From the IMG/VR virus record IMGVR_UViG_3300032516_000008, positions 29,092 through 93,091 of that record: 64,000 bases of DNA, one strand, 5' to 3'. A program made the translations under genes and the position numbers. The stretch's first letter is position 1, and every line of letters starts with the position of its first letter. The notes beneath the pieces are model-generated. The model was not told the DNA's origin. It saw only the letters and a program-made list of their open reading frames with translations, and searched no databases. Shown here piece after piece: positions 49,054 through 64,000 of this stretch. The DNA comes from a virus (taxonomy: Duplodnaviria > Heunggongvirae > Uroviricota > Caudoviricetes).

Positions 49054-49125
49054 GGAGACTTAGCTGAGATGGATTAGCGAGTGGTTGAAGCCCACTAGAG
49101 GACAGCTCGATACTGTCAGTCTCCA
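49054..49125 (+). tRNA. tRNA-Phe (anticodon GAA)
   Basis: Manual fold: acceptor GGAGACT/AGTCTCC, D-arm GCTG-AGATGGAT-TAGC, anticodon arm AGTGG-TTGAAGC-CCACT, T-arm GACAG-CTCGATA-CTGTC. Confidence 0.75.
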
Positions 49126-49196
49126 TTCTTCATGCGGTCAAGTTCTAGACTTTATCTTGTATTGATAGTTCGTAATGTACTAACAAGGAGTATATT

Positions 49197-50438
49197 ATGA
49201 ACATATGTAAATGCGGTAAATCATTCAAAAATGCAGGAGCGCATGCTATTCATCGTAATAGTTGTCTTTATGTTAAGCATCCAAAAGAATGTGAACTCAT
49301 TAGATCAGATTATAAAAATAAGTTGTTAATTTCAGATATCAAGAAAAAATATTGTTTCACAAGAAATGAAATTCATGCAGTTGTCAAAGACATATTACGA
49401 AGTGATAGCGAGACAAATAAAATTGCCCATACAAACCCTAATAGAAAAAAATATCATAATATCAATAGTAATTTTGCTAAGAAAGTGATGTGTGAAAAAT
49501 GTAAAAGAACAATTAGTGTTGTAAATCTTTATAAACATACTTGTGTAAGTGAAGAAGTTCGTGAAAGTATAATCAAGTTATATAATCTAGGCTTATCACC
49601 AAGGGATATAAGAGCGAAAGGATATGACAAAAGGGTCATTAGTTTTTCATTAAGTCATAAAAGACGATCTTTGTCTGATTCTATTAAAGCTAGATATAAA
49701 AATCATCCAGAGACATTTAAGCTTTCTAAAGCAACAAAAGATAAGATTAGACAATCAATATTAAAAGCTAGACAAAATGGAATTGCTTATAGTTGGACAA
49801 GAAAGAAGCCATCATATGCTGAAAGTAAATTTCACGAATTTTTAGTTAAGTTAGGATTGAAAGAAAATGTTGATTTTTTTACAGAATTTCCATTTTCTAT
49901 TTATAGAGCAGATTTTTATTTTCCAAAACATAAACTTGTAATTGAGATTGATGGTGAACAACATGTAAAATATGATGTAATACGAGAACGAGATAAACGA
50001 AAAGATGAATATTTGAAAAATCATGACATTAAAGTTTTAAGGATAAGATGGAAAGATGTGCATCATAATCATGAAGTAATTTATGATGAAATTAAAGACA
50101 TTTTGAATAATTCACAAAACTTTGAATTAAGACTAGATACTTTCACTAAAGCACAAGCTAGACGGTTACAACTATTGACAGAGTTTGAAATAAATCGTGA
50201 TCAATTAAAAATTGAAAAGCAACAAATAAAAAAGCTAGAGCAACAAGCTAGAACTGCACAACAAACTAAAGACATTTTACAAAGTGATTTTACAAAGCGT
50301 GGCACAGTCGAAAATCTTAGTAATAAATGGAATGTCTCACATACACAAGTTAGACGGCTCGTGAATAGATATATGACATGCTGTGCGGGCAACCGCTTAG
50401 GGGTTCGAGTGCCTTCTCGTCAGCCATTAGTTGCATGA
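49197..50438 (+). CDS. free-standing homing-endonuclease-like protein (N-terminal Zn-finger/NUMOD-like repeats + DUF559/Vsr-like PD-(D/E)xK nuclease domain)
   Basis: CKCGK...H...C motifs and a C-terminal YRADFYFPKHKLVIEIDGEQH...RDKRKDEYLKNHDIKVLRI. Confidence 0.6.
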   Translation: MNICKCGKSFKNAGAHAIHRNSCLYVKHPKECELIRSDYKNKLLISDIKKKYCFTRNEIHAVVKDILRSDSETNKIAHTNPNRKKYHNINSNFAKKVMCEKCKRTISVVNLYKHTCVSEEVRESIIKLYNLGLSPRDIRAKGYDKRVISFSLSHKRRSLSDSIKARYKNHPETFKLSKATKDKIRQSILKARQNGIAYSWTRKKPSYAESKFHEFLVKLGLKENVDFFTEFPFSIYRADFYFPKHKLVIEIDGEQHVKYDVIRERDKRKDEYLKNHDIKVLRIRWKDVHHNHEVIYDEIKDILNNSQNFELRLDTFTKAQARRLQLLTEFEINRDQLKIEKQQIKKLEQQARTAQQTKDILQSDFTKRGTVENLSNKWNVSHTQVRRLVNRYMTCCAGNRLGVRVPSRQPLVA

Positions 50439-50443
50439 TTTGT

Positions 50444-50520
50444 TGGCCCGTAGCTCAGCTGGCAGCAGCGAGCGGCTGTTAACCGCTAGGTCGTAAGTTC
50501 AAACCTTACCGGGCCAGCCA
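50444..50520 (+). tRNA. tRNA-Asn (anticodon GTT), CCA encoded
   Basis: Acceptor TGGCCCG/CGGGCCA, anticodon arm AGCGG-CTGTTAA-CCGCT, T-arm GTAAG-TTCAAAC-CTTAC. The D-arm is atypical. Confidence 0.7.
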
Positions 50521-50594
50521 TTTTTTTTAACTGAAAGGAGATATGATGACGTCCAAACCAATGCGCACTTAGTGGCGCTAACAAAGGAGTCATC

Positions 50595-50831
50595 ATGTCG
50601 CATCCGGTTAGCAAGAGAGATCGCTTTCTTGTTGGGGTCAAGAAGAGTAAGAAACGCGTAACTAACTTTTACACGTATCTTACGAAGTTAGAGCATCCTG
50701 AATGGGTTGCAAGAGCAGAACAGATGCGAAGAAATACTACAAAGACTTGTTCATGTAGCGGGTGCGGCAATCCGAGAAAGTATTTTGGTGAGAAAACAAT
50801 GCAAGAAAAACGTTACGGAGAGTTGGAGTAA
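50595..50831 (+). CDS. hypothetical protein (Cys motif CSCSGCGNP)
   Basis: ORF with GGAG ribosome-binding site. The 3' end overlaps the start of the tRNA-Ser gene. Confidence 0.35.
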   Translation: MSHPVSKRDRFLVGVKKSKKRVTNFYTYLTKLEHPEWVARAEQMRRNTTKTCSCSGCGNPRKYFGEKTMQEKRYGELE

Positions 50832-50901
50832 TGGTATCTCAGCAGTTTGCTAAACTGCCGACCGAAAGGTCTTGTCGGTTCGAATCCGGCACTCTCCGCC
50901 A
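50817..50901 (+). tRNA. tRNA-Ser (anticodon GCT), long variable arm, CCA encoded
   Basis: Acceptor GGAGAGT/ACTCTCC, anticodon arm GCAGT-TTGCTAA-ACTGC, variable arm GACC-GAAA-GGTC, T-arm GTCGG-TTCGAAT-CCGGC. Confidence 0.8.
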
Positions 50902-50921
50902 TTCTAGTCTTTGAGGATCTG

Positions 50922-51272
50922 ATGTGGATAGACGATAAAAGTGATGGTTGTGTGTATGACACAATTGATTGTAATAAGTGTGGCAATTGCGGTCGGAAGT
51001 TTGACATAGAAGATGAGGATAAATTGGACTTCATTGTAGAAAATGAAACAGTAAATATATCATTTCAGTCAATGAATGACATGTTACAGATGCATGTGCA
51101 TTGCGGAATGAAGTCCAAGAAGATACCGTTGCTATTAGAGAAACATCAAGTAACAAAGATCTTGAGTAAACTTGATGATCTTAAAGAAAGAACATTTGAA
51201 TCATTTGACTATTTTACAATGATAGTTGCAGGCTGTGCAGAAACAGTAATGAAAGGCGGAATGCACAGATGA
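50922..51272 (+). CDS. hypothetical protein
   Basis: The track ORF at 50847 starts inside the tRNA-Ser gene, so the likely start is Met at about 50922. Confidence 0.3.
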   Translation: MWIDDKSDGCVYDTIDCNKCGNCGRKFDIEDEDKLDFIVENETVNISFQSMNDMLQMHVHCGMKSKKIPLLLEKHQVTKILSKLDDLKERTFESFDYFTMIVAGCAETVMKGGMHR

Positions 51273-51658
51273 AACAGTATCCGTCAATTTCACATGATAT
51301 ACGATCGGTTCAAGCGTATGCGTTCGACAAACTTGATGGCTCGAATATTCGAGCGGAGTGGCATCCAAAAAAAGGCTTCTGGAAATTCGGTAGTAGAACA
51401 AGACTGCTCGGTACTGACCAGCCGTGGCTCAGTAAAGCAGACGAACTCGTCAAACATAAATATGGAGACGAACTCTCAAAGATTTTTAGGGCACAGCGGT
51501 ACGAGAAGGTCGTGGCATTTTTTGAATTCTACGGTGCAAACTCATTCGCAGGACACCACGTAGACGAGCAACATACAGTCACGTTAATTGATGTAAGTGC
51601 TCATCGACATGGTATTGTACCACCAAAGGAATTCGTGAAATTGTTTTTGCACAATTAA
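51269..51658 (+). CDS. truncated nucleotidyltransferase (RNA/DNA ligase-like) N-terminal fragment
   Basis: Motif I-like DKLDGSNIR and motif III-like VAFFEFYG. Only 129 aa, and it ends immediately before two tRNA genes. Confidence 0.35.
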   Translation: MKQYPSISHDIRSVQAYAFDKLDGSNIRAEWHPKKGFWKFGSRTRLLGTDQPWLSKADELVKHKYGDELSKIFRAQRYEKVVAFFEFYGANSFAGHHVDEQHTVTLIDVSAHRHGIVPPKEFVKLFLHN

Positions 51659-51661
51659 TGT

Positions 51662-51736
51662 GACGGCATAGCCAAGCTGGTAAGGCAGCAGTCTGCAAAA
51701 CTGTTATCGGGAGTTCAAATCTCCCTGTCGTCTCCA
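51662..51736 (+). tRNA. tRNA-Cys (anticodon GCA), CCA encoded
   Basis: Acceptor GACGGCA/TGTCGTC (one GU pair), anticodon arm GCAGT-CTGCAAA-ACTGT, T-arm GGGAG-TTCAAAT-CTCCC. Confidence 0.7.
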
Positions 51737-51743
51737 TATAAGT

Positions 51744-51816
51744 GCCGCTATAGCTCAGTTGGTAGAGCAACTGCTTCGTAAGCAGTAGGTCGGAGGTTCA
51801 AATCCTCTTGGCGGCT
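51744..51816 (+). tRNA. tRNA-Thr (anticodon CGT)
   Basis: Acceptor GCCGCTA/TGGCGGC, D-arm GCTC-AGTTGGTA-GAGC, anticodon arm ACTGC-TTCGTAA-GCAGT, T-arm GGAGG-TTCAAAT-CCTCT. Confidence 0.8.
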
Positions 51817-52326: not shown

Positions 52327-52620
52327 ATGGATTTGACAATTCTTAAGAATGAACTCAAGACTAAAGCCCTCGAGATTCGACAGACTAAAGTCGAACTTTC
52401 AAAACCTCATGATGCTGCAAGCGCATTAAAGCAATGTCAATTGCACATAATGAAAAGTCATATTCGGCTCAAACATATTGCGTATTGTATTCTGAGAGGA
52501 ACGCCGTATGAGCGTATTGAAAAGCCTCGCGAAGGTAATGAGCCGAACATGGACATTGTTCAACAATTTATCCGGGAGATCCAACATGGACAAGCCAAAG
52601 ATGTATGTGCTTGTGCGTAG
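52327..52620 (+). CDS. hypothetical protein
   Basis: AGGAG ribosome-binding site. Confidence 0.4.
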   Translation: MDLTILKNELKTKALEIRQTKVELSKPHDAASALKQCQLHIMKSHIRLKHIAYCILRGTPYERIEKPREGNEPNMDIVQQFIREIQHGQAKDVCACA

Positions 52621-52891
52621 TGATCTTGCCGAGACATACAGATGTGTGCAAGGTACTCATGCATTAGCGCAATTCGCATTGAGATATCCTGAGGTATTTC
52701 GCCAGTGGAATAATGGGCATTTGATATTTTTGAGTGTCCGCTTTGCAAGTGGAATCGAACATTGGTCAAGTCTTTTGTGTTTGCAAAATAAATTGTCTGC
52801 GACATTTATTGAACCAGATCAAGACAATAGACCAACAGCTGTAGCTTGTTATGACACTGGTGAGATTTTCAAATCTCTACCGCTTGCATGA
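52586..52891 (+). CDS. peptidyl-tRNA hydrolase, PTH2 family
   Basis: KMYVLVRSDLAETYRCVQGTHALAQFAL matches the PTH2 pattern K.V.VVR.DL.M..GK.AAQ..HA. Length about 101 aa. GGGAG ribosome-binding site before the ATG at 52586. Confidence 0.6.
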   Translation: MDKPKMYVLVRSDLAETYRCVQGTHALAQFALRYPEVFRQWNNGHLIFLSVRFASGIEHWSSLLCLQNKLSATFIEPDQDNRPTAVACYDTGEIFKSLPLA

Positions 52892-52898
52892 TGGAAAT

Positions 52899-52970
52899 GC
52901 CTCGATAACTTAGCGGTCAAAGTGACGGTCTCTAAAACCGTTATCGCCAGTTCAAATCTGGCTCGAGGCA
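52899..52970 (+). tRNA. amber suppressor tRNA (anticodon CTA, reads UAG); short variable arm, discriminator A
   Basis: Acceptor GCCTCGA/TCGAGGC, D-arm ACTT-AGCGGTCA-AAGT, anticodon arm ACGGT-CTCTAAA-ACCGT (U33, anticodon C34 U35 A36), T-arm GCCAG-TTCAAAT-CTGGC. Confidence 0.7.
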
Positions 52971-53142
52971 TTTTTCATAGCTATTCTAATTGACTATTAT
53001 ACTATGGCTAAAAACATAAGCTGTAGAGTCTGCAGTAAATCATTCAATGTCAAAGAATCGACGCGTGTATACGGAGACATACCAGCAAATCACAGATGCT
53101 GTTCTGCGCGATGTTATACAGAATTTTTGAAAGGTGTAGATA

Positions 53143-53664
53143 ATGACGCCAGCACAACTAAAAGCACAACTAATTAGTCGAGTGCATCGTCTGAATGAGT
53201 TTCTTAAGATGCCAGAGACTCCTGACTGGATTATTGACAATGAACGGAAGTTTATTGAAAGGTCGTACCAACATCTAAAAGACATTGGTATAGACGCGCA
53301 GCAATATCTAGAATCTGACCAGGGTAAGACTGACTATCTCATGTATGCAGTAGATCATGACGGTCGAAATGCTGCAATAGACCGTTGTACTAGCTGTGAG
53401 CATTATGAAATGATTGATTTAGAAATTGGCAGAACTGATATTCAGTGCGAACTGAAAGTTGAATTGTTTCCTGATGCTTGTCGTGCTTTTCGTGAAGCAG
53501 AAGATTGTGATACACGATTTCAAATGATGTCATTAGAACGATGTCAAAATTGTCACAATGCTGTTATGGTCAAAGAATTTAATGACATAGAATTTCCTTA
53601 TTGCTCAAAAAAGCTAAATCGTATTAAAAGAGATTGTTTGAGTTTTGATCCAAAGGAATTTTGA
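53143..53664 (+). CDS. Cys-rich hypothetical protein
   Basis: ORF. Confidence 0.4.
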   Translation: MTPAQLKAQLISRVHRLNEFLKMPETPDWIIDNERKFIERSYQHLKDIGIDAQQYLESDQGKTDYLMYAVDHDGRNAAIDRCTSCEHYEMIDLEIGRTDIQCELKVELFPDACRAFREAEDCDTRFQMMSLERCQNCHNAVMVKEFNDIEFPYCSKKLNRIKRDCLSFDPKEF

Positions 53665-54332
53665 TGAAGCGATCTACTCTAATCGAATCAAAAATTCGAG
53701 CGTACAATCCAAAAGGCGATCTTGCACACACTGCTCGTTTAATTCTGGCCATGTGTGATGTGAATCATGTTTCTACAAAAGATCATTTGGAAAGAGTAGC
53801 ACTGCTTGCAGAAGCAACAGCAAAGAAACTGCGAAAAGATGCAAAAGCTGCCTTTTTTGCAGGTCTTCTACATGATGCCGGCAAACTTTTACTGCCAGCT
53901 CAGTTATTTGACGGACATAACATAGATGCAGTAGAATACGATAATGTAAAAACTCATGCCCAAGCAGGCTACAAGGCTCTCAAGAAGCTGCACATGTTCA
54001 CGGCTCTTTGTGCAGGTTTGCATCATAATCTTTACAAAGCAGGTTACGGTTTAGATCGAAATGCTTTTCCTGAGAATTGGTCACCGTCAACTATCAAAAA
54101 AGTTTTGGAAATTTCAACAATCATATCTATTTGTGATTTTGTGGATGCTTTTAACAACAGAAAAACAGAAATCAAAGACGGATCTGATAAAATTGAACAA
54201 CCGGATTTGAAAAGCATGCTGTATACAAAGTACGGAGATGACAAAGAAGTCGTCGATATTATTCTTTTTCTATACAAGACTTGTAATTTCAATACTTGGA
54301 CAAAGCATGTTTCACGTACCAAATCTGTATAG
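53661..54332 (+). CDS. HD-domain phosphohydrolase (HD-GYP-like features)
   Basis: H...HLERVA...LLHDAGK...GLHHNLYKAGYGLD (compare HD-GYP HHE..DG.GYP). Confidence 0.5.
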   Translation: MMKRSTLIESKIRAYNPKGDLAHTARLILAMCDVNHVSTKDHLERVALLAEATAKKLRKDAKAAFFAGLLHDAGKLLLPAQLFDGHNIDAVEYDNVKTHAQAGYKALKKLHMFTALCAGLHHNLYKAGYGLDRNAFPENWSPSTIKKVLEISTIISICDFVDAFNNRKTEIKDGSDKIEQPDLKSMLYTKYGDDKEVVDIILFLYKTCNFNTWTKHVSRTKSV

Positions 54333-54684: not shown

Positions 54685-54882
54685 GTGAAAGCAGTTTACA
54701 ATATAGACCCTGATCAGGGTGCTGTAGCGTTGCTTACTAAAGTAACGTTGCCCGGATACAAAGTGGTAAAAATTACTCGAAAAGGTAAGATCGCTACAGT
54801 AGAATATGATAAGGTTACTATAGGAATTCAAATACCAATTCTTGACTCTATTCTTGTTGGAACAAGTCGTGATTTGTCTTGA
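54685..54882 (+). CDS. small hypothetical protein
   Basis: TAAGGAGA ribosome-binding site, GTG start. Confidence 0.3.
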   Translation: MKAVYNIDPDQGAVALLTKVTLPGYKVVKITRKGKIATVEYDKVTIGIQIPILDSILVGTSRDLS

Positions 54883-55714
54883 ATGTAATAAAGTGGTTAG
54901 GGCAATAGTTTATAGACATTTACAGTCATGTTGTGGATTGAGTGTTAGAGAGTACAAGAAAAAGCATGGTGTAACTAAGATTGCTGATGATGACGTTCTA
55001 AATTCTTATGCTTGTAAAGACGAAAAGAATGGACGATGGATAGGACGAAAATTAGTAAAAAGCTTTTGTCTAGATTGTGGCAAGCAGTTGAAGAGGAGGC
55101 CGGGCCCAAAAGCGTCAGGATTGTGTAAGTCATGCGTTCAATTAGGAGAACGTAACAATTTTTATAATAAAAAGCATTCGTTAAAAGCTCGCGAGCAAAT
55201 GAAGAAGAATCATTATGATTGCTCGGGAGAAAATAACAGTTTCTTTAATAAGACGCATTCAACTGACTCATTACAACTTATGAGTCAGTCACATGTTGAA
55301 AATTGGAAAAATTACAGTAATGAGAAAAGATGGCAGATTTTAATAAATTGGATTTGCGCGGGCACAGCTAAACATTCAAAAACTTCAATAGAAGAAACTA
55401 TTAATTCAGTTTTGCTATTTCTTGGATTAAAAGAAGTTGATGACTATAAGAGGAACACTCAAATTGGTAAATACAATGTTGACTTTTTAGTGTATAAGAG
55501 GCTAATAATAGAGTGCTATGGTGATTATTGGCACAAGAATCCAAAATATCATAATTCATCAAATGATGAAGTAAAACGACTAAAAGATTTAGAAAGAGCG
55601 CGTTATTTAGAAAGTAAGGGTTATAAGTTTCTGTATTTTTGGGAAGATGAAATTAAAAATGACATTAAAAGTGTGACAGACAAAATGATAATGTTTTTAG
55701 AAAGTGAGAAATGA
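54842..55714 (+). CDS. free-standing homing-endonuclease-like protein (Zn-finger + NUMOD3-like repeats + DUF559/Vsr-like nuclease domain)
   Basis: CLECNK...C, CLDCGK...CKSC, repeated NNFYNKKHS / NSFFNKTHS motifs, C-terminal KYNVDFLVYKRLIIECYGDYWH. Paralogous to the C-terminus of the 49197 gene. Confidence 0.6.
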   Translation: MTLFLLEQVVICLECNKVVRAIVYRHLQSCCGLSVREYKKKHGVTKIADDDVLNSYACKDEKNGRWIGRKLVKSFCLDCGKQLKRRPGPKASGLCKSCVQLGERNNFYNKKHSLKAREQMKKNHYDCSGENNSFFNKTHSTDSLQLMSQSHVENWKNYSNEKRWQILINWICAGTAKHSKTSIEETINSVLLFLGLKEVDDYKRNTQIGKYNVDFLVYKRLIIECYGDYWHKNPKYHNSSNDEVKRLKDLERARYLESKGYKFLYFWEDEIKNDIKSVTDKMIMFLESEK

Positions 55715-56878
55715 ATGTTTTCATATAAAAAAGATCAATTTCGTGTGCCAGTAAAAGTCTGGATGAACGAAAGTAGCTATTATGCTGATGATGCAATGGT
55801 TAAACAAGTAGAGAATTTGGCAATATTACCTTTTGTATTTAGTCATATTTCTTTGTCTCCTGACGGGCACGTTGGCTACGGGATGCCAATTGGCGGCGTT
55901 ATGGCAACCAAAGGCGTCATAGTTCCAAATGCTGTTGGTGTTGACATTGGTTGCGGCATGTGTGCAGTTAAGACGTCATTGCAATCAATTGACAAAGATG
56001 AATTGAAAAAGACAATGGGAAGGATTCGTGAAGCAGTCCCTGTAGGATTCGAACATCACAAAGAGAAAATATCGTGGGAAGGGTTTGATCGAGCACCTAA
56101 TGTAGCAATTATTCAACAGCAATTGAGTACAGCACAGACTCAGCTTGGTACGCTAGGAGGTGGCAATCACTTCATTGAGATTCAAAAGGGATCAGATGGT
56201 TTTGTTTGGGTCATGCTACATTCTGGTTCTCGGAATTTTGGCTTGAAAATAGCCAATGAATATCATAAGAAAGCACAATGGCTATGCGAGAAATGGTATT
56301 CGAGTATACCCGACAAAGACCTTTCGTTTCTTCCAATGGAAACAAAAGAAGCACATGAATACTTTGATGTCATGAAGTTTGCACTTGAGTTTGCAAAAGA
56401 GAACAGATTTCGAATGATTGACGCAATAAAACAATCATTTGATATTTCAGGAATTACGTTTGATGAAACAATCAACATTCATCACAATTATGCAGCTTGG
56501 GAACATCATTTTGGTGAAGATGTCATTGTTCACAGAAAAGGTGCGACATCAGCCAGAAAAGATCAAATCGGATTGATACCCGGTTCTCAAGGTACAAAAA
56601 GCTATGTAGTACGTGGCAAAGGTAATGAAGATTCATTCATGTCATGCTCGCACGGTGCTGGTAGAAAAATGGGACGGAAACAAGCACAAAGAGAATTGAA
56701 TTTAGATGCCGAAAAGAAACTACTTGATGATCAAGGCATCATTCATGCCATTCGAAATAAAGCTGACTTAGATGAAGCTGCCGGTGCTTACAAAGACATA
56801 AGTGTTGTTATGGACAATCAAAAAGATTTGGTGGATATTGTAGTAGAACTTTCACCATTAGCTGTCATAAAAGCATAA
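55715..56878 (+). CDS. rtcB: RtcB-family RNA 3'-phosphate ligase
   Basis: VGVDIGCGMCAV, GGGNHF, HHNYAA, and SCSHGAGRKMGR metal/GTP-binding motifs. Length 387 aa. Confidence 0.85.
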   Translation: MFSYKKDQFRVPVKVWMNESSYYADDAMVKQVENLAILPFVFSHISLSPDGHVGYGMPIGGVMATKGVIVPNAVGVDIGCGMCAVKTSLQSIDKDELKKTMGRIREAVPVGFEHHKEKISWEGFDRAPNVAIIQQQLSTAQTQLGTLGGGNHFIEIQKGSDGFVWVMLHSGSRNFGLKIANEYHKKAQWLCEKWYSSIPDKDLSFLPMETKEAHEYFDVMKFALEFAKENRFRMIDAIKQSFDISGITFDETINIHHNYAAWEHHFGEDVIVHRKGATSARKDQIGLIPGSQGTKSYVVRGKGNEDSFMSCSHGAGRKMGRKQAQRELNLDAEKKLLDDQGIIHAIRNKADLDEAAGAYKDISVVMDNQKDLVDIVVELSPLAVIKA

Positions 56879-57121: not shown

Positions 57122-58015
57122 ATGTTGAATACTGGATTTAGCGAGATCACTGAAGAGCGAGTAAAGTATACAGGAAATGGTTTCTGGTACTGTGAACTTG
57201 CTTTAACAGGAGTATGCAACTTTCATTGTAAGTATTGCAATAGACTAAGATCAGAAATCGATTATGAAACTGTTCGCAAATTCATTTACGCTGAACGAAA
57301 TTCTTTACGCCACATTCAATTGACGGGCGGAGAACCTACAACCAGTATTTATTTGTACTACTTATGCAGTTTTATAAAGGCTCACAAAATCAGGTTAGGG
57401 CTTTCAACAAATGGTTCTGCATCATTAGATTTGTACAAAGGTCTTCATGTAGATATGTTTTCGATATCACTTGATGATTATGATACTCAAATACTGATTA
57501 ATCGAGGTTATGAAAATCCTCAGCGTGTAATCGATAACATCAAAGCGCTATCTAAATTGACGTATGTCAACGTTGGTATTGTAATTGACTCACTCAATCG
57601 AGATAGAATTGAACAGATCATTCAGTATGTCCTTGGGCTTGGCGTACATGACATAAAGTTGTCAATTTCAACACATGATGAAGTCATGCCTGTATTTAGT
57701 GATTGCGATTATTCAAAGTATCCTATTTTGAATTATCGCGTGACAAGATTCAGACAAGGTAAAAACATGCGAGGGATTGATAGACCTTTCAAGTGCGAGA
57801 TTGCAAAGAGTGATATCTCTATAGTAGGTACAAAACATTATCCTTGTTTAGTTTATGCTAGAGAAAAGGGTAATGCTATTGGTGAAATGTCAGGAGACAT
57901 TAAAACAGATCGATTGAAGTGGTATAAGAAACACGAACCGAAAAATGATCCTATTTGTAGTAAGTATTGTATGGATTTCAAGTGTGATTTCAATCTAGCA
58001 GTTGGAGAGAAATAA
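57122..58015 (+). CDS. radical SAM enzyme (MoaA/viperin-like core) with C-terminal Cys-rich auxiliary-cluster-like region
   Basis: CNFHCKYC (C-x3-C-x2-C), QLTGGEPT, and C-terminal C...C..C plus CSKYCMDFKC. Confidence 0.6.
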   Translation: MLNTGFSEITEERVKYTGNGFWYCELALTGVCNFHCKYCNRLRSEIDYETVRKFIYAERNSLRHIQLTGGEPTTSIYLYYLCSFIKAHKIRLGLSTNGSASLDLYKGLHVDMFSISLDDYDTQILINRGYENPQRVIDNIKALSKLTYVNVGIVIDSLNRDRIEQIIQYVLGLGVHDIKLSISTHDEVMPVFSDCDYSKYPILNYRVTRFRQGKNMRGIDRPFKCEIAKSDISIVGTKHYPCLVYAREKGNAIGEMSGDIKTDRLKWYKKHEPKNDPICSKYCMDFKCDFNLAVGEK

Positions 58016-59184: not shown

Positions 59185-59187
59185 ATA

Positions 59188-59604
59188 ATGAAACATATTG
59201 CAAAAATTCAGAAGGAGTTTTTGAAAGTCGCTTTAGACGACTTGATGCTAAACAAAGGATCATTAGTCAAGTTGCAAGGCGTACCATTTGAACTTAAGGA
59301 TAACACTGCTGTTGCAGGAAAACAAGAAAATCTTGATTTGGTAGCTACTAACAAGGAACCAAGTTTCTTTCAGGGTACTAAGTATCGCGACCCAACTGAT
59401 GTGGAACTTCTAGAAATACATGAAAGTGGGCCTACAGGTGAAGATTTGATGAAAGGTTTCGGCTATGCTATGATCGGAAGAGGCATGTTGAATAATGACA
59501 ATAAGGCCATGATTATCAGTGCCATTGAGAGACTGTGCAAACTACAATCAAGTAATAAAGGGTACTGGGCAGCTTTAGAACAAGCAAAGTCTATGAGTCG
59601 TTAG
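59188..59604 (+). CDS. MKHxAxIQxEFL-leader family protein 1
   Basis: N-terminus MKHIAKIQKEFL. TAAATAATG stop-start coupling. Confidence 0.5.
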   Translation: MKHIAKIQKEFLKVALDDLMLNKGSLVKLQGVPFELKDNTAVAGKQENLDLVATNKEPSFFQGTKYRDPTDVELLEIHESGPTGEDLMKGFGYAMIGRGMLNNDNKAMIISAIERLCKLQSSNKGYWAALEQAKSMSR

Positions 59605-59606
59605 TC

Positions 59607-59867
59607 ATGAAACATTTAGCTACTATACAGTGTGAGTTTTTGATTCAGGCGAAGCAATATAGCCGTCGATGGCTTAAGATGAATATGCAACAACAGCGAC
59701 AATATCTTGAGGATCATCCAGGATCAAAGAAAGTCGTAAATGCAAAACCATCAAAACGAAAAAAATATAGACTAAAGCCAAAGTATAAGAAGGTTCGTAA
59801 GAATGAGAAAATGCGGCAAATGAAAACAAATCGAACGATGGATACATTACTAGGAGTAAGTAAATGA
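59607..59867 (+). CDS. MKHLATIQ-leader family protein 2 (Lys-rich, HPGSKK motif)
   Basis: N-terminus MKHLATIQCEFL and W..QQQRQYLEDHPGSKK. Confidence 0.5.
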   Translation: MKHLATIQCEFLIQAKQYSRRWLKMNMQQQRQYLEDHPGSKKVVNAKPSKRKKYRLKPKYKKVRKNEKMRQMKTNRTMDTLLGVSK

Positions 59868-60349
59868 AACATCTAGCAATTATTCAGACAGAGTTTTTGA
59901 AGTCAGCGCGCAAATGGGAAGATTGGTCATTAGAAGATCAAAAGACTTATTTGAAACGACATCCTAAGTCTAAAAGACGCATACATAAATTCACAACGCC
60001 CGGTCAACAACGAGTTAAAGAAGAATTAGCTAGCAAATTTGATTCTGAACATCCTGCACGAAAAAAGGACCTTAAAAAGCTTACTAATTTATCGAGTCAA
60101 TTTGAAAAAGATAAGTTCGAAGTACGTGAAGATTTTGAGGATAACGTTTTTACTGTTACAAACAAAAAAGGTTTTGAGACAGTGTTCAGATTGACAAATA
60201 AAGGTAACTTTACTGCGATTGTAGAAGGTTATTCAAGTGATATTCCTCTCGGTGACGTTGGTAAAACTTACAAAGACTTAAAAGAAATCGTAAGGTCTAT
60301 CAATAAATCGTGGATGAAAGAAAATGACCCACATGGAAATGAGTGGTAA
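59864..60349 (+). CDS. MKHLAIIQ-leader family protein 3
   Basis: N-terminus MKHLAIIQTEFL and EDQKTYLKRHPKSKRR. Confidence 0.5.
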   Translation: MKHLAIIQTEFLKSARKWEDWSLEDQKTYLKRHPKSKRRIHKFTTPGQQRVKEELASKFDSEHPARKKDLKKLTNLSSQFEKDKFEVREDFEDNVFTVTNKKGFETVFRLTNKGNFTAIVEGYSSDIPLGDVGKTYKDLKEIVRSINKSWMKENDPHGNEW

Positions 60350-60350
60350 T

Positions 60351-61388
60351 ATGAAACATTTAGCCACTATCAGCAAAGAATTTGTTGAAAAAATTGCAAA
60401 AACGTATTGGGACGACCTTAGCTACTTTGAACAACGACATTACATCCAAACTCATCCAAAAACTACTAAGAGGATAACTGCTACTCCTCCAGTAGCTGAC
60501 AAGGGTCAACAAATGTGTCCCTTGTGCCACACTAAATTTGTTGACAGAGACAAGACGTTAGCTCATATTAGAGATTTTCATTCGTTTACTGATACTACTC
60601 CAGAAACTATGGAAGCTTACAATTCATTCAAGAAAGTTCGCGATCGTGCTAAAAAGACAAAATTTGCAGAACTACTACCACCTCTATCTAGACCCAATGA
60701 AGAAATACATGATGCCATTTTCAAGAACTACGGTAGAAGCGCTCGTCAACAATTACAAAAACTAAAAGAACCAGTCAAATACGTATTTGTAGGTGAAGGT
60801 GGCGAATACGTCAAAAATGAATCTAAATTTTATGACAACTTAGTAAGCAAACTCAAACTTACAACAGTATTTGATGAATCATCTGGTGATGAACCACAAT
60901 CTGTTATAGCTGACATATCTCAAGGTGACAAAGAACAAGTAATTACTGGCAAATCTGGCGGTGAATACATACATATGCGAATAGCCATGGGCAATATTGA
61001 CGGCTCAACTGTTGTAGTTCATGATTTTGAACGTCAAGGCACGACATATGTAAAACCATCAAATCGCCCGATGCCCTACACAACTTCCGGCATTGAACTA
61101 TTCATCGGTGCTACAGATGAAGAAAACAAAACCTGGGAACAAAGAAAACAAGAAAAAATAAATCGACCACCCAGAAAAGATAGACCTCTAACTGAAGATC
61201 GAGTAAGACGCTTAGGTAGACAAATTGCTCGTGAACTCAAATCAGATGACAAATATGATGATTCAGCAGTATATGATGTAGCAGAAAACTACTTAGTAAC
61301 TACACCCGGCCTAAAAGACTTCTTTACGAATAAAGGTGTTAAAGAACAGTTCATGTCGGCTGCATTCGCAGATTATATAAGTCTCTAA
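60351..61388 (+). CDS. MKHLATIS-leader family protein 4 (C2H2-like CPLCH...H segment)
   Basis: The internal Met at 60351 gives MKHLATISKEFV, plus FEQRHYIQTHPKTTKR. Track ORF starts at 60324. Confidence 0.5.
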   Translation: MKHLATISKEFVEKIAKTYWDDLSYFEQRHYIQTHPKTTKRITATPPVADKGQQMCPLCHTKFVDRDKTLAHIRDFHSFTDTTPETMEAYNSFKKVRDRAKKTKFAELLPPLSRPNEEIHDAIFKNYGRSARQQLQKLKEPVKYVFVGEGGEYVKNESKFYDNLVSKLKLTTVFDESSGDEPQSVIADISQGDKEQVITGKSGGEYIHMRIAMGNIDGSTVVVHDFERQGTTYVKPSNRPMPYTTSGIELFIGATDEENKTWEQRKQEKINRPPRKDRPLTEDRVRRLGRQIARELKSDDKYDDSAVYDVAENYLVTTPGLKDFFTNKGVKEQFMSAAFADYISL

Positions 61389-61865: not shown

Positions 61866-61897
61866 GTAGCGCTTCAGTAATGAGGCGCTACTTTCAA
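61866..61897 (+). terminator. rho-independent terminator
   Basis: AGTAGCGC-ttcagtaatgag-GCGCTACT followed by TTTC. Confidence 0.6.
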
Positions 61898-62620
61898 ACT
61901 GCTACATTTAACATCCAGCTATAAAGTCATTGATGAAATTTGCATAATATATTTCATGCAACTAACTTATAAATTCACTTCTAAACATACTAACGCTAGC
62001 AAACTAGAGTCTATACGAGAACTCTCTAAAGTTTACCAGAAATACTATAATACATTATTTAGTGAAGAGTTAATAATCACTGGAGTGATTCTATCACTTA
62101 TGTTAGAAAGTAACGAGTCAATGTTAGCTTTCGCTTGTTGTTCGCATGTTTGCTTGTATCGTTCTGAAAAGTTCTCATTAGAGAATTTTTCTATTATAGG
62201 TAGATATTTGGGTAGTGACCCGTTTTTGTAGAAGTCGTGTAGGCTTTTAGACACGACTGATACTAAAATAATTCTTCATTATATCAATAAATATCATCTA
62301 TGGTTTCGTGAGTCAGTCAAGATAAGAAATACAGACGTCCCTCAAGAGCTAATGAAACTAGTAAGTTTGGTTTATCTACGCTTGTTAAAGTGATTATTGT
62401 TTTATATTCTCAGGAATATTCAAGAAAACCTGAATACTTTGAAAAACACGAGAGTGTAATGCAAACCCTACAACTTCATACTGCACCTATAAAACGTGTC
62501 AAGCGACACGCAGTGTTGGGGTTGTCCTATTTATCATGGCTATCAGTTGGATACGAAGGCTATGATAAATCGTGGACAGGCGGGGCTTGAGTTAATCCTA
62601 AACACTTAGGCTAAACACAA

Positions 62621-62656
62621 AACCCCGCCGGTCAAATCGATCGACGGGGTTTTTCT
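62621..62656 (+). terminator. rho-independent terminator
   Basis: CCCCGCCG...CGACGGGG followed by TTTTTC. Confidence 0.65.
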
Positions 62657-62858
62657 ATTTTAGGGAGGCTCGCCATGGACAAATTTGAAGTCTCAAAATG
62701 CTTCCTCCCTAAAGACACATTTGACGATTTTGTTGAAATGGCAAAACAAGAACAAAAATGGGGCCGGAAACCAAAACCAATCACAAAATTGGTCTGGCAA
62801 AATGATAACTTGAAAGGAGCGAGTCCAAATGGACAGTGACAAATCTGACAAACGTTTG

Positions 62859-62948
62859 GGCTCCGTCACCTAGCGGATCGAGGGTAACAGATTTTTAATC
62901 TGTCTGAGCTTACGGCTCACATCGCAGGTTCAAATCCTGCCGGGGCCA
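62859..62948 (+). tRNA. type II (long variable arm) tRNA with anticodon TTT; identity ambiguous (Leu/Ser-like body, Lys anticodon)
   Basis: Acceptor GGCTCCG/CGGGGCC (one GU pair), 3-bp D-stem with 12-nt D-loop, anticodon arm ACAGA-TTTTTAA-TCTGT, variable arm TGAGC-ttacg-GCTCA, T-arm GCAGG-TTCAAAT-CCTGC, discriminator A. Confidence 0.55.
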
Positions 62949-62958
62949 CTGAATTTAT

Positions 62959-63036
62959 GGTGGATGTAGCTCAATTGGCTAGAGCATCGGATCGTGATTC
63001 CGAAGGTTGTGGGTTCGAGGCCCATCATTCACCCCA
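62959..63036 (+). tRNA. tRNA-His (anticodon GTG) with encoded G-1 and CCA
   Basis: G-1 pairs with discriminator C73. Acceptor GTGGATG/CATTCAC, D-arm GCTC-AATTGGCTA-GAGC, anticodon arm TCGGA-TCGTGAT-TCCGA, T-arm GTGGG-TTCGAGG-CCCAT. Confidence 0.7.
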
Positions 63037-63090
63037 AGCTAGTTGCATGATTCAATTGACAATTACTAGTGATCTTTGAAATAAGTAAAT

Positions 63091-63164
63091 GCCCGCATAA
63101 CTCAGTTGGCTAGAGTAAGTCACTTTTAATGACTAAGCCGTTGGTTCAAATCCAACTGCGGGTA
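63091..63164 (+). tRNA. tRNA-Lys (anticodon TTT)
   Basis: Acceptor GCCCGCA/TGCGGGT, D-arm ACTC-AGTTGGCTA-GAGT, anticodon arm AGTCA-CTTTTAA-TGACT, T-arm GTTGG-TTCAAAT-CCAAC. Confidence 0.8.
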
Positions 63165-63178
63165 CTTACATTGAATTA

Positions 63179-63255
63179 GGGCGCGTAGCAAAGTTGATTA
63201 ATGCACTTGATTCTTAATCAAGAGATCGTCAGTTTGAACCTGACCGCGCTCACCA
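63179..63255 (+). tRNA. tRNA-Lys (anticodon CTT), CCA encoded
   Basis: Acceptor GGGCGCG/CGCGCTC, anticodon arm CTTGA-TTCTTAA-TCAAG, T-arm GTCAG-TTTGAAC-CTGAC. Confidence 0.65.
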
Positions 63256-63307
63256 GTTAAAGCTCTTTGACATATTGATGATGAAGCACATTTGAGAACG
63301 TAATTAC

Positions 63308-63391
63308 GCGAGGATGGCGGAATTGGCAGACGCACTGGGCTTAGGACCCAGCGGAAGTAATTCCTTGCGAGTTCAACTCTCGCTCTTCGCA
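63308..63391 (+). tRNA. tRNA-Leu (anticodon TAG), type II
   Basis: Acceptor GCGAGGA/TCTTCGC, D-arm GCGGAATTGGCAGACGC (Leu-like), anticodon arm CTGGG-CTTAGGA-CCCAG, variable arm GGAA-gtaa-TTCC, T-arm GCGAG-TTCAACT-CTCGC. Confidence 0.8.
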
Positions 63392-63498
63392 TATTATACA
63401 AGATCAAACTTAGAACCGGAAACGGTACCAGTTCCCAAGGCACTCGACAGTGTGCCGGCAGGACTGGTCGTAGGAATGATCAACTGTCAGAATTTCTT

Positions 63499-63581
63499 GC
63501 GGATGTGGTGAAATGGTAAACACACTACTTTGAGGTGGTAGCGGGAGCAATCTCGTGCAGGTTCAAGTCCTGTCATCCGCA
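63499..63581 (+). tRNA. tRNA-Leu (anticodon GAG), type II
   Basis: Acceptor GCGGATG/CATCCGC, anticodon arm CTACT-TTGAGGT-GGTAG, long variable arm, T-arm GCAGG-TTCAAGT-CCTGT, discriminator A. Confidence 0.7.
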
Positions 63582-63600
63582 TTTCGGAGTTGACTGTATT

Positions 63601-63674
63601 TGGGAGCGTAATTCAAAATGGTAGAATATCGGACCGTCTATCCGAAAGTTGCGGGATCATACCCCGTCGCTCCC
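63601..63674 (+). tRNA. tRNA-like gene, probable Asp (anticodon GTC) with atypical anticodon and T loops (possible pseudo-tRNA)
   Basis: Perfect acceptor GGGAGCG/CGCTCCC, D-arm ATTC-AAAATGGTA-GAAT, anticodon arm TCGGA-CCGTCTA-TCCGA (C33 and U37), T-arm GCGGG-ATCATAC-CCCGT (A54 and T58 swapped), discriminator G. Confidence 0.45.
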
Positions 63675-63762
63675 GTTAATATCTGCAGTACAACAGCATG
63701 GCATTAGATTGATCATCTATCTCATACACAAGTTAGACGATTTTTGCAAAAGTATGATAACT

Positions 63763-63835
63763 AGGCGTGTGGCTCAATGGTACAGCACCGGTCTCCAAAA
63801 CCGACACTTTGGGAGTTCAAATCTCTCCACGCCTG
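63763..63835 (+). tRNA. tRNA-Trp (anticodon CCA)
   Basis: Acceptor AGGCGTG/CACGCCT. Close overall match to E. coli tRNA-Trp (GGCTCAATGGTA...CACCGGTCTCCAAAACCG...GGGAGTTCAAATCTCTC). Confidence 0.8.
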
Positions 63836-63848
63836 ATTTTTAAGTTTT

Positions 63849-63926
63849 GCGGTAGTAGCCCAGTTGCTCTAAGGCGTCTGCCTTCCAAGCAGAATATCGC
63901 GAGTTGAAATCTCGCCTACCGCACCA
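63849..63926 (+). tRNA. tRNA-Gly (anticodon TCC), CCA encoded
   Basis: Acceptor GCGGTAG/CTACCGC, anticodon arm TCTGC-CTTCCAA-GCAGA, T-arm GCGAG-TTGAAAT-CTCGC. Confidence 0.75.
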
Positions 63927-63932
63927 AGTAAC

Positions 63933-64000
63933 GGCCCGTTCGTCTAGTGGTTAGGACACATGGTTTTCAACCATGCAGCACCAGTTCAATTCTGGTACGG
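63933..64000 (+). tRNA. tRNA-Glu (anticodon TTC), 3'-truncated by window end
   Basis: GGCCCGT TC GTCTAGTGGTTAGGAC, anticodon arm CATGG-TTTTCAA-CCATG, T-arm ACCAG-TTCAATT-CTGGT. Matches the E. coli tRNA-Glu D-arm. Confidence 0.7.

What the first reader, a model, noticed from the sequence alone, without database searches (positions are those of the whole stretch)
49054..64000. tRNA/translation-repair island: 16 tRNAs interleaved with RtcB, PTH2, HD phosphohydrolase, ligase fragment and homing endonucleases
Within 15 kb the window carries tRNAs Phe, Asn, Ser, Cys, Thr, Sup(CUA), type-II(UUU), His, Lys(UUU), Lys(CUU), Leu(UAG), Leu(GAG), Asp-like, Trp, Gly and Glu. Alongside are an RtcB 3'-phosphate RNA ligase, a PTH2-type peptidyl-tRNA hydrolase directly upstream of the suppressor tRNA, an HD-domain phosphohydrolase, and a truncated KxDG nucleotidyltransferase. 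Two tRNA-Lys isoacceptors plus RtcB strongly suggest a counter-measure to host anticodon nucleases (PrrC/RloC/colicin-like) or tRNA-targeting defence. PTH2 could rescue ribosomes stalled by defence toxins or by suppressor activity.
Basis: partly seen in the sequence, partly recalled or inferred. Interest (0 to 1): 0.65.

Follow-up and report, generated by a model that had tools for sequence, protein, structure and literature searches.

The report
Suppressor tRNA with dedicated PTH2-like cassette
This is the tRNA-rich region of an uncultivated large phage, and although its parts (16 tRNAs, an RtcB RNA ligase, homing endonucleases) are ordinary for such phages, it holds a small three-part cassette (a helical protein, a divergent peptidyl-tRNA-hydrolase-like protein and a stop-codon suppressor tRNA) that recurs in many unrelated phages and that I did not find described.

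Summary
All 16 tRNAs are real (ARAGORN; all score at least 48 bits on Rfam tRNA). RtcB is intact, with its catalytic residues. The HD protein passes Pfam. The 'KxDG fragment' is the N-terminal 127 aa of a ~205-aa RNA-ligase-like family. Two DUF559/NUMOD3 endonuclease genes are absent from a close relative, as expected of mobile genes.

The 'PTH2' gets no Pfam hit, but its AlphaFold model matches only PTH2 structures. The catalytic Lys is replaced by an invariant Tyr.

The 'repair island' reading is already published for jumbo phages and is not a conserved unit here. RtcB, HD and radical SAM accompany the tRNAs only in the closest relative.

The conserved unit is 52327-52971: a ~97-aa helical protein overlapping a PTH2-like gene, then tRNA(CUA) 7 nt downstream. 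Across 40 dereplicated phage lineages, the first tRNA downstream of the PTH2-like gene is a stop-anticodon tRNA in 31 of 37 (background 7%, p~1e-28). These lineages include cultured mycobacteriophages. One phage fuses the two proteins.

The dependence is one-way: only 34 of 120 CUA-tRNA loci carry the gene nearby. The window shows no TAG recoding.

The most likely function is a hydrolase or binding factor for the acylated suppressor tRNA. This mechanism is inferred, not shown.

The parts
52327..52620 (+). Partner gene of the cassette: 97-aa all-helical protein of an uncharacterised phage family (motif R..HIAYxLLRGxxYExIE). It overlaps the start of the PTH2-like gene by 35 nt.
   Evidence: It is found directly upstream of, or overlapping, the PTH2-like gene in most related loci (alignment A3). 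A profile search finds 312 homologues with no Pfam or PHROG family. The AF2 model has pLDDT 85 and four helices. It has no significant PDB match and only two uncharacterised phage proteins in BFVD. It is fused to the PTH2-like domain in L131.
52586..52891 (+). PTH2-like gene (101 aa from the ATG at 52586; the longer ORF from 52508 is probably not used). It is a divergent member of the peptidyl-tRNA hydrolase 2 fold.
   Evidence: There is no Pfam hit for this protein, but 17 of 29 relatives hit PF01981 weakly, best E 1e-6. The AF2 model (pLDDT 95) matches only PTH2 structures. The Q-x-x-H-A motif and an acidic E77-P-D79 are retained. The catalytic Lys is replaced by an invariant Tyr19.
52899..52971 (+). 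Amber suppressor tRNA (anticodon CUA, loop CUCUAAA, G1-C72, A73, no encoded CCA). It starts 7 nt after the PTH2-like stop codon and is followed by a T-run.
   Evidence: ARAGORN. Rfam tRNA scores 69.3 bits. Aligned with 35 PTH2-linked suppressor tRNAs, all 21 cloverleaf pairs show compensatory changes. Sequence read.
49054..49125 (+). tRNA-Phe(GAA). The 5' half of a second tRNA-Phe lies just upstream at about 48997-49036.
   Evidence: ARAGORN. Rfam scores 48.1 bits with lax filters. The remnant was seen by alignment to the L012 tRNA-Phe and by reading the sequence.
49197..50438 (+). Homing-endonuclease-like gene 1 (413 aa, DUF559/Vsr-like nuclease domain).
   Evidence: Pfam DUF559 E 3.4e-11. 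Absent from the syntenic relative L012.
50444..50901 (+). tRNA-Asn(GUU) 50444-50520, a 78-aa ORF 50595-50831, and tRNA-Ser(GCU) 50817-50901.
   Evidence: for the tRNAs. The ORF is conserved in L012.
51269..51658 (+). Truncated RNA-ligase-like gene. It has motif I (KLDGSN) and motif III (FFEFYG) and lacks motifs IV and V. It ends 3 nt before tRNA-Cys.
   Evidence: PF09414 is weak, E 0.039. Full-length homologues are about 205 aa and hit PF09414 over its whole length. No C-terminal part exists anywhere in the window. The whole segment is missing in L012.
51662..51816 (+). tRNA-Cys(GCA) and tRNA-Thr(CGU).
53661..54332 (+). HD-domain phosphohydrolase (223 aa). It is not part of the conserved cassette.
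   Evidence: Pfam HD scores 34 bits against a 22-bit cut-off. Homologues were found only in L012 and L014/L015 among the related loci.
54842..55714 (+). Homing-endonuclease-like gene 2 (NUMOD3 + DUF559), abutting the RtcB start.
   Evidence: No homologue in L012 or any other related locus.
55715..56878 (+). RtcB 3'-phosphate/5'-OH RNA ligase (387 aa), catalytically intact.
   Evidence: Pfam E 3.7e-111. Alignment to PDB 1uc2 shows all the active-site motifs. L012 carries a 29%-identical allele with a ~1.3-kb interruption at the same site.
57122..58015 (+). Radical SAM protein (297 aa) of unknown specificity.
   Evidence: Pfam Radical_SAM E 1.2e-15. All NCBIfam matches fall below their cut-offs. 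It is 85% identical in L012.
62859..64000 (+). Compact array of 10 tRNAs: long-arm tRNA(UUU), His, Lys(UUU), Lys(CUU), Leu(UAG), Leu(GAG), Asp, Trp, Gly and Glu. The last is cut by the window end, so the array may continue.

Best explanation
The 15 kb is the mosaic tRNA region of an uncultivated large phage that uses the standard code, at least within this window. It holds 16 functional-looking tRNA genes in two blocks. These are interspersed with mobile endonuclease genes, a dead RNA-ligase remnant, an intact RtcB, an HD protein and a radical SAM protein.

The only multi-part unit conserved beyond the closest relative is the cassette at 52327-52971: a helical partner protein, a PTH2-like protein and a suppressor tRNA. 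These are probably made from one transcript, with the tRNA cut out of its 3' end.

I propose that the PTH2-like protein works as a complex with the partner. It would bind the acylated 3' end of the phage's own suppressor tRNA and hydrolyse its ester bond, whether peptidyl, N-blocked or wrongly charged. That would keep the suppressor recyclable and limit the harm of stop-codon read-through.

Shown: the PTH2 fold, the retained active-site residues other than the Lys, the gene overlap, the one-way genomic linkage, and one natural fusion.

Inferred: co-transcription, complex formation, the substrate and the chemistry.
For: Linkage.
- In 40 clusters of the PTH2-like protein (80% identity), the first tRNA downstream on the same strand is a stop-anticodon tRNA in 31 of the 37 clusters that have any downstream tRNA (29 CUA, 1 UUA, 1 UCA). 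The median gap is 55 nt.
- Four more clusters have such a tRNA within 1.3 kb upstream.
- Suppressors make up 7% of all tRNAs in these loci, giving a binomial p of about 1e-28.
- The link holds in cultured mycobacteriophages of two genera: ScoobyDoobyDoo gp79/gp80 and Cane17 gp148/gp149. It also holds near Lak megaphage and huge-phage homologues.

The linked tRNAs.
- They are real tRNAs: all 21 pairs covary.
- They are not one lineage. They include type I and type II tRNAs, A73 or G73, and three different stop anticodons.
- So what is conserved is the association with suppression, not one particular tRNA.

The proteins.
- The PTH2 fold is established.
- Q23, H26, E77, P78, D79 and T85 are invariant.
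- The partner gene overlaps or abuts the PTH2-like gene in most lineages.
- The two are fused into one ORF in L131, with tRNA(CUA) 23 nt downstream.
- L010 has a canonical PTH2 as well as this one, so the two are not redundant.
- The family is essentially absent from 185,579 cellular genomes: one hit, on a MAG contig.
- The gene itself avoids TAG as its stop codon: 1 of 41 against a 15% background, p 0.01.
Against: - There are no biochemical data.
- The catalytic Lys of PTH2 (my recollection of Fromant et al. 2005; the paper is not held) is Tyr here and Leu in the mycobacteriophages. Hydrolase activity may therefore be altered or lost.
- The dependence is one-way. Of 120 IMG/VR stretches with a CUA tRNA, only 34 carry the gene in the held stretch. 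Suppressors therefore do not need it.
- The partner is not detectable in mycobacteriophages.
- Five of 40 lineages have the gene but no detectable suppressor nearby.
- Gene order varies, which weakens the single-transcript idea for some lineages.
- The window shows no in-frame TAG use, so it is unclear what the suppressor does in this phage.
Confidence: 0.45

Rival explanations
1. The whole region is one counter-defence island. Spare tRNAs (notably three with Lys anticodons) replace tRNAs cut by host anticodon nucleases, RtcB reseals them, and PTH2 frees ribosomes jammed by cut peptidyl-tRNAs.
For: RtcB is intact, and it seals exactly the ends that anticodon nucleases leave (established biochemistry; Tanaka and Shuman 2011, as cited in PMC7824862). 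Three Lys-anticodon tRNAs are present. The same reading is published for jumbo phages. Phage tRNAs as a way round tRNA-targeting defences is an accepted idea (PMC10264068, listed).
Against: The parts are not co-conserved. RtcB occurs once among 141 neighbours of the PTH2-like gene in other lineages. RtcB relatives have 0-1 tRNAs nearby. The RtcB allele is swapped between close relatives and sits beside a mobile endonuclease gene. The ligase is truncated. The model does not predict that the PTH2-like gene should sit next to a suppressor tRNA rather than a Lys tRNA. The host and its nucleases are unknown.
Confidence: 0.25
2. The PTH2-like protein is a general peptidyl-tRNA recycling enzyme. It deals with the side effects of suppression, namely read-through into 3' ends, stalled ribosomes and dropped peptidyl-tRNAs of any kind. 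It sits by the suppressor only so that the two are switched on together.
For: PTH2 fold. tmRNA genes lie near the cassette in L021 and L026 and in cluster C mycobacteriophages. The one-way dependence fits an optional safeguard.
Against: L010 keeps a canonical PTH2 in addition. The catalytic Lys is lost. A dedicated partner protein, and its fusion in L131, are unexpected for a housekeeping enzyme.
Confidence: 0.2
3. The cassette is a switch. The PTH2-like protein keeps the suppressor uncharged, or sequesters it, until a set time in infection, and the partner acts as its inhibitor or specificity subunit. This would control when stop codons are read through.
For: Overlapping two-gene layout with a small helical protein. 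The published model holds that suppressor expression times late-gene translation (Borges et al. preprint). The cassette occurs in recoded Lak phages.
Against: The genes are co-oriented with the tRNA and probably co-expressed with it, which is odd for an antagonist. The cassette also occurs in phages with no sign of recoding, including this window and annotated mycobacteriophages. A fusion of 'inhibitor' and 'enzyme' argues against antagonism.
Confidence: 0.08
4. The adjacency is a by-product of tRNA-array architecture or of shared ancestry and has no functional meaning.
For: The gene lies in tRNA-dense regions (up to 28 tRNAs per 20 kb). Many IMG/VR loci are near-duplicates.
Against: After dereplication, 31 of 37 first-downstream tRNAs are suppressors against a 7% background. 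The linked tRNAs are unrelated in sequence and type. Hosts range from Mycobacterium to Prevotella. Flanking genes are otherwise unconserved.
Confidence: 0.02

Closest known systems
PTH2 (archaeal/eukaryotic peptidyl-tRNA hydrolase 2, PF01981), as reported in jumbo phages and in the tRNA arrays of cluster C mycobacteriophages
   Same: Same fold (TM 0.71-0.82 to 2zv3, 1wn2, 1xty, 1q7s). Same size. It keeps the helix-1 Q-x-x-H-A motif and an acidic residue at the catalytic Asp position. It is phage-borne and located among tRNA genes (PMC7824862, PMC5966550).
   Different: It falls below the Pfam threshold. The catalytic Lys is replaced by Tyr. The loop after the acidic residue is shorter. It has a dedicated partner protein. 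It is almost always adjacent to a suppressor tRNA, and it co-exists with a canonical PTH2 in L010.
The 'code change module' of recoded phages (suppressor tRNA + aminoacyl-tRNA synthetase + release factor; Borges et al., bioRxiv 10.1101/2021.08.26.457843)
   Same: A phage suppressor tRNA is clustered with protein genes that act on translation. Some carriers, such as the Lak phages, are recoded.
   Different: The proteins are different: no synthetase and no release factor. The cassette also occurs in phages with no recoding, including this window. It was not mentioned in that paper (0 occurrences of 'hydrolase').
T4 Pnkp/Rnl1 and bacterial RtcB tRNA repair
   Same: The window has an intact RtcB that could reseal anticodon-loop breaks.
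   Different: No end-healing partner, no RtcA or archease, no conserved linkage to the tRNAs, and no known host nuclease. Here the RtcB gene behaves as a mobile, replaceable gene.
Trans-editing deacylases (YbaK/ProX, AlaX, DTD)
   Same: Small stand-alone proteins that hydrolyse the ester bond of wrongly acylated tRNAs. This is what the cassette might do for a tRNA whose anticodon no synthetase expects.
   Different: The folds are unrelated. The resemblance is functional speculation only and was not tested.

Membership tests
PTH2 (PF01981) | Alpha/beta PTH2 fold | tested here: met
   The AF2 model (pLDDT 95) gives 15 Foldseek PDB matches with E below 0.01. Fourteen are chains of PTH2 entries and one is Atu0240, a protein of unknown function. 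TM is 0.61-0.82.
PTH2 (PF01981) | Sequence match to the family model above Pfam's gathering score | tested here: not met
   The window protein gives no hit at E up to 10. 17 of 29 relatives hit weakly, best E 9.6e-7. A profile search against PDB finds only 2zv3, at E 0.58.
PTH2 (PF01981) | Catalytic Lys and Asp (K18 and D86 of S. solfataricus Pth2; recalled from Fromant et al. 2005, paper not held) | tested here: not met
   The Lys position is an invariant Tyr19, and Leu in mycobacteriophage gp79. An acidic residue (E77 or D79) is retained. The alignment is at 14-24% identity, so exact register is uncertain.
PTH2 (PF01981) | Hydrolysis of peptidyl-tRNA | not testable with these tools
   Needs an enzyme assay or pth(ts) complementation.
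Suppressor tRNA | Canonical cloverleaf with a stop-codon anticodon in a 7-nt loop, with U33 and a purine at 37 | tested here: met
   ARAGORN. Rfam scores 69.3 bits. The loop is CUCUAAA. Covariation across 36 linked tRNAs.
Suppressor tRNA | Charged with an amino acid and active at UAG | not testable with these tools
   A nearest-neighbour comparison with 460 other phage tRNAs gave no isotype.
Stop-codon-recoded phage (code 15) | In-frame TAG codons in conserved genes; a jump in coding density when TAG is read as sense | tested here: not met
   TAG ends 16 of 79 ORFs of at least 100 codons, with short extensions. Coverage rises from 0.79 to 0.83 with TAG as sense, less than for the TGA or TAA controls. 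The one long extension is a separate ORF. Only 64 kb of the genome was seen.
RtcB RNA ligase (PF01139) | Family model above threshold, plus metal-binding Cys/His/Asp and the GMP-histidine | tested here: met
   372.8 bits against a 27-bit cut-off. All motifs are conserved against 1uc2.
RNA ligase, nucleotidyltransferase superfamily (PF09414) | Motifs I, III, IIIa, IV and V | tested here: not met
   Motifs I and III are present. Motifs IV (EGVVCK) and V (FKIK), seen in the 205-aa homologues, are absent from the ORF and from the window. It is a truncated gene.
HD phosphohydrolase (PF01966) | Family model above threshold | tested here: met
   34 bits against a 22-bit cut-off. The substrate is unknown.
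Free-standing homing endonuclease genes | Nuclease and DNA-binding modules, and presence/absence polymorphism between close relatives | tested here: met
   DUF559, and NUMOD3 + DUF559. Both are absent from L012, whose flanks are 78-90% identical. Cleavage was not tested.
Anticodon-nuclease counter-defence (T4 Pnkp/Rnl1 paradigm) | Repair enzyme matched to a host nuclease, with demonstrable rescue | not testable with these tools
   The host is unknown, and no nuclease or expression data are available.

The most novel reading that the evidence does not exclude
The partner/PTH2-like pair is a dedicated accessory of phage stop-codon suppression. It would be a suppressor-tRNA-specific ester hydrolase or chaperone that makes a foreign suppressor tRNA safe or effective in a standard-code cell. 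It could do this by editing mis-acylation, by recycling peptidyl-tRNA(CUA), or even by releasing proteins from peptidyl-tRNA(CUA) as a termination route independent of release factors. That would give a handle on an open puzzle: why many phages that are not recoded keep suppressor tRNAs (raised in PMC12386605). It would also add a new protein component to natural genetic-code switching.
Probability: 0.3. Interest if true: 0.8.

Novelty: new variant of a known kind. Interest (0 to 1): 0.62.

Why it matters
Phage suppressor tRNAs are central to current work on natural genetic-code switching. It is unclear how they function in standard-code hosts, and why non-recoded phages keep them. A small, phage-only protein pair that follows suppressor tRNAs across hosts as distant as Mycobacterium and Prevotella is a concrete, testable lead. 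It includes cultured M. smegmatis phages in which the gene can be deleted.

If the pair acts on the suppressor tRNA, it could also be useful for engineered amber suppression. The rest of the region (tRNA arrays, RtcB, homing endonucleases) is ordinary for large phages.

Tried and rejected
1. TAG recoding in the window. Stop usage, read-through extensions and ORF coverage with each stop read as sense gave no signal. The 89-codon extension after 36204-36788 is a separate zinc-ribbon ORF.
2. The same coverage test on 85 related 20-kb loci gave no consistent TAG gain. Late genes are mostly outside those stretches, so this is not decisive.
3. Assigning an amino acid to the suppressor by nearest-neighbour comparison with about 460 phage tRNAs was uninformative: all are about 70% alike whatever the isotype.
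4. Looking for a third conserved protein with a Pfam census of 141 flanking genes found nothing above 4 of 141.
5. Naming the partner protein failed. Pfam, PHROGs, PDB and BFVD fold searches gave nothing informative. The AlphaFold-database library was not available.
6. Looking for the missing C-terminal half of the ligase elsewhere in the window found it absent.
7. A near-identical DNA search in cultured phages returned only fragments of tRNA genes. A helicase search gave at most 35% identity, so taxonomy and host stay unknown.
8. Profile-profile comparison of the PTH2-like family with one canonical PTH2 was too weak to use.
9. The Powers et al. 2005 PTH2 paper is not held, so the catalytic residues rest on my memory.
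10. Chance adjacency of the PTH2-like gene and the suppressor was rejected statistically.

Full report
**What is there**

Rfam's tRNA model gathers 15 in a whole-window scan. It gathers the sixteenth, tRNA-Phe at 49054, at 48.1 bits when the filters are laxer. The tRNAs form two blocks:
- six dispersed genes (Phe, Asn, Ser, Cys, Thr and a CUA suppressor) between 49054 and 52971;
- a compact array of ten from 62859 to the window end, where the last (Glu) is cut.

The surrounding 64 kb encodes a baseplate wedge protein, helicases, an NAD-dependent ligase and an FtsK-like protein. It has no close DNA relative among cultured phages, and a helicase is at most 35% identical to any of them. It is therefore an uncultivated large phage of unknown host, with about 37% G+C.

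- *RtcB (55715-56878).* The assignment is secure: Pfam E 3.7e-111, and every active-site motif aligns with P. horikoshii RtcB.
- *HD protein (53661-54332).* It passes Pfam's threshold.
- *'KxDG fragment' (51269-51658).* It is the N-terminal 127 residues of a family whose members are about 205 aa and match PF09414 end to end. The C-terminal motifs are nowhere in the window, and the whole segment is missing from the close relative L012. It is a dead remnant.
- *The two DUF559 endonuclease genes,* one of which also carries NUMOD3. Both are absent from L012, whose flanks are 78-90% identical. That is the behaviour of mobile homing endonuclease genes.
- *'PTH2'.* This was the weakest call. The protein (101 aa from the ATG at 52586) gives no Pfam hit at any threshold and no PDB hit by sequence. 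Its family of about 101-aa proteins does touch PF01981 weakly in 17 of 29 members. An AlphaFold model built on that family (pLDDT 95) matches PTH2 structures and essentially nothing else, with TM 0.71-0.82. The fold is therefore PTH2. The position of the catalytic Lys carries an invariant Tyr, while the Q-x-x-H-A motif and an acidic E-P-D are kept.

**Is it an island?**

Comparison with L012 (IMG/VR contig of 128 kb; PTH2-like protein 89% identical) shows a mosaic. HEG1, the ligase remnant and HEG2 are insertions. The RtcB of L012 is only 29% identical and is interrupted by about 1.3 kb. Six RtcB relatives from other viral contigs have 0-1 tRNAs within 10 kb.

A Pfam census of the two nearest genes on each side of the PTH2-like gene in 39 other lineages found no family in more than 4 of 141 genes, and RtcB only once.

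The general idea that tRNAs, RtcB and PTH2 of large phages serve RNA repair and ribosome rescue is already published (Iyer et al. 2021, PMC7824862).

**The conserved unit**

Contigs carrying relatives of the PTH2-like protein show a tRNA with a stop anticodon a few bases downstream. I fetched 80 further loci from IMG/VR and scanned them all. After clustering the protein at 80% identity there are 40 lineages:
- In 31 of the 37 lineages that have any tRNA downstream on the same strand, the first one is a stop-anticodon tRNA (29 CUA, 1 UUA, 1 UCA). The median gap is 55 nt.
- Four more have one within 1.3 kb upstream.
- Five have none.

Suppressors are 7% of all tRNAs in these loci, so the binomial probability is about 1e-28.

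The same pairing is annotated, though apparently not remarked on, in cultured mycobacteriophages:
- ScoobyDoobyDoo gp79 'peptidyl tRNA hydrolase', then gp80 tRNA-Pyl(cta).
- Cane17 gp148, then gp149 'tRNA-OTHER', which is a CUA tRNA.

Homologues also occur in Lak megaphages and in other huge phages. A UUA tRNA lies 590 nt upstream in Lak-B7 and a CUA tRNA 800 nt downstream in LR756500.

The linked tRNAs fold as canonical cloverleaves, with compensatory changes at all 21 pairs. But they are not one tRNA lineage. They include long-arm (type II) examples, carry A73 or G73, and resemble no particular isotype. Even the window and L012 share only the acceptor stem. What is conserved is the association with suppression.

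**A third component**

The 97-aa ORF at 52327-52620 overlaps the PTH2-like start by 35 nt. Homologues sit in the same position in most lineages. A profile search finds 312 such proteins with no Pfam domain, no PHROG family and no name.

The model is a helical bundle (pLDDT 85) with no informative structural neighbour. In L131, one ORF carries the partner domain (residues 4-74) and the PTH2-like domain (residues 93-174), with tRNA(CUA) 23 nt downstream. This natural fusion argues that the two proteins work together. The partner is not detectable in the mycobacteriophages.

**Limits on the claim**

- *One-way dependence.* I searched IMG/VR for CUA tRNAs by a pattern that does not depend on the protein. 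Only 34 of 120 stretches carry the PTH2-like gene in the DNA held, in several gene orders. These stretches were not dereplicated and vary in length. The PTH2-like gene almost always comes with a suppressor, but suppressors often come without it.
- *Phage restriction.* The family is practically absent from 185,579 cellular genomes. The one hit is on a MAG contig.
- *No recoding in the window.* TAG ends about a fifth of long ORFs, with short extensions. Reading TAG as sense gains less coverage than the TGA or TAA controls.
- *The gene's own stop codon.* It is TAG in only 1 of 41 lineages against a 15% background (p 0.01). This is a weak hint that the neighbouring tRNA does suppress.

**Mechanism**

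The evidence establishes a functional association and a PTH2 fold with a partly conserved active site. It does not establish the chemistry.

I favour a complex of partner and PTH2-like protein that binds the acylated 3' end of the phage's suppressor tRNA and hydrolyses a peptidyl, N-blocked or wrong aminoacyl ester. Four observations favour a role tied to the suppressor over general peptidyl-tRNA recycling:
- the one-way dependence;
- the co-existence with a canonical PTH2 in L010;
- the dedicated partner;
- the lost catalytic Lys.

General recycling of the by-products of read-through remains a serious rival. A timing switch is less likely, given the co-orientation and the fusion. Chance is excluded.

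**Novelty**

- Papers that mention both peptidyl-tRNA hydrolase and suppressor tRNAs in phages list them separately (XacN1, Atu_ph07).
- Morgado and Vicente (PMC5966550) note a PTH2-like gene as a core gene of cluster C tRNA arrays, without mentioning the suppressor.
- The recoding paper's 'code change module' has no hydrolase.
- 'PTH2' together with 'suppressor tRNA' returns no paper in the held library.
- A 2025 paper on Zeta crAss-like phages calls the retention of suppressor tRNAs in non-recoded phages unexplained.

The cassette is therefore a new variant within known kinds (phage PTH2, phage suppressor tRNAs). The rest of the region is ordinary.

Noticed in passing
window 62859-62949; also L095 10127-10213 and 10217-10300; L026 9414-9499: A 91-nt tRNA with a long (type II) variable arm, a 7/5 acceptor/T-stem geometry, A73 and a UUU (Lys) anticodon. 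Similar long-arm UUU tRNAs occur in two unrelated huge-phage loci. In bacteria long arms mark Leu, Ser and Tyr tRNAs, whose synthetases (Leu, Ser) ignore the anticodon. Its amino-acid identity is therefore open: it could be a Lys tRNA, a mistranslating tRNA, or a decoy for tRNA-Lys nucleases. One literature search found nothing on it.
   Followed up: partly
window about 48968-49125: The 5' half of a tRNA-Phe (matching the L012 tRNA-Phe up to the anticodon loop) lies at about 48997-49036. It is flanked by a near-repeat, TTTTTATTGGGA(C/T)GAA. A complete but divergent tRNA-Phe follows, and then the endonuclease gene 49197-50438. It looks like a tRNA gene replaced in the course of a homing event.
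   Followed up: partly
window 54842-56878 versus L012 12081-14488: Between flanks that are about 80% identical, the window has HEG2 plus an RtcB close to those of other IMG/VR phages (53-59% identical). L012 instead has a 29%-identical RtcB split by about 1.3 kb, possibly an intein; NCBIfam's best models for the window protein are intein-containing RtcB families. This is allele replacement at a mobile-element hot spot.
   Followed up: partly
window 59188-61388: Four consecutive genes (138, 86, 161 and about 348 aa) begin with nearly the same N-terminus, MKH(I/L)A(K/T/I)I(Q/S)xEF. They form a tandem paralogue family with no Pfam match.
   Followed up: no
L010 5354-5928: A canonical PTH2 gene (PF01981) lies directly after two tRNA-Gln genes, on the same contig that carries the PTH2-like/suppressor cassette 4 kb downstream.
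   Followed up: no
L021 7222-7597; L026 8446-8787: Phage tmRNA genes lie 1.5-3 kb upstream of the PTH2-like cassette. Cluster C mycobacteriophages, which have the PTH2-like/suppressor pair, also carry a tmRNA (abstracts).
   Followed up: no
L053 11663-11754; L054 11876-11962; L058 (96-nt UCA tRNA 876 nt upstream of the gene): Some suppressor tRNAs near the PTH2-like gene have long variable arms and are closest to tRNA-Ser. This suggests suppressors that insert Ser, Leu or Tyr rather than the Gln usually assumed.
   Followed up: no
window 52899-52971 versus L012 10317-10390: The PTH2-like proteins are 89% identical. The two suppressor tRNAs, however, share only the acceptor stem; their D and anticodon arms differ and their T arms only partly match. 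This points to fast turnover or partial replacement of the tRNA body.
   Followed up: no
P0169, P0183, P0222 (database proteins of 128-134 aa): Other database members of the 205-aa RNA-ligase-like family also stop near residue 128-134, like the window copy. They could be fragments of short contigs, or a recurrent truncated form.
   Followed up: no
window 39859-43245 (- strand) and 45282-45983 (- strand): A 1128-aa protein combines radical SAM and glycosyltransferase matches, beside a sialyltransferase-like gene. The methyltransferase-like gene 45282-45983 is absent from L012.
   Followed up: no
window 57122-58015: A radical SAM protein sits next to RtcB and is 85% identical in L012, but it falls below every NCBIfam cut-off (nearest are MoaA-like, twitch-domain and viperin-like models). 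Its function is unknown.
   Followed up: no
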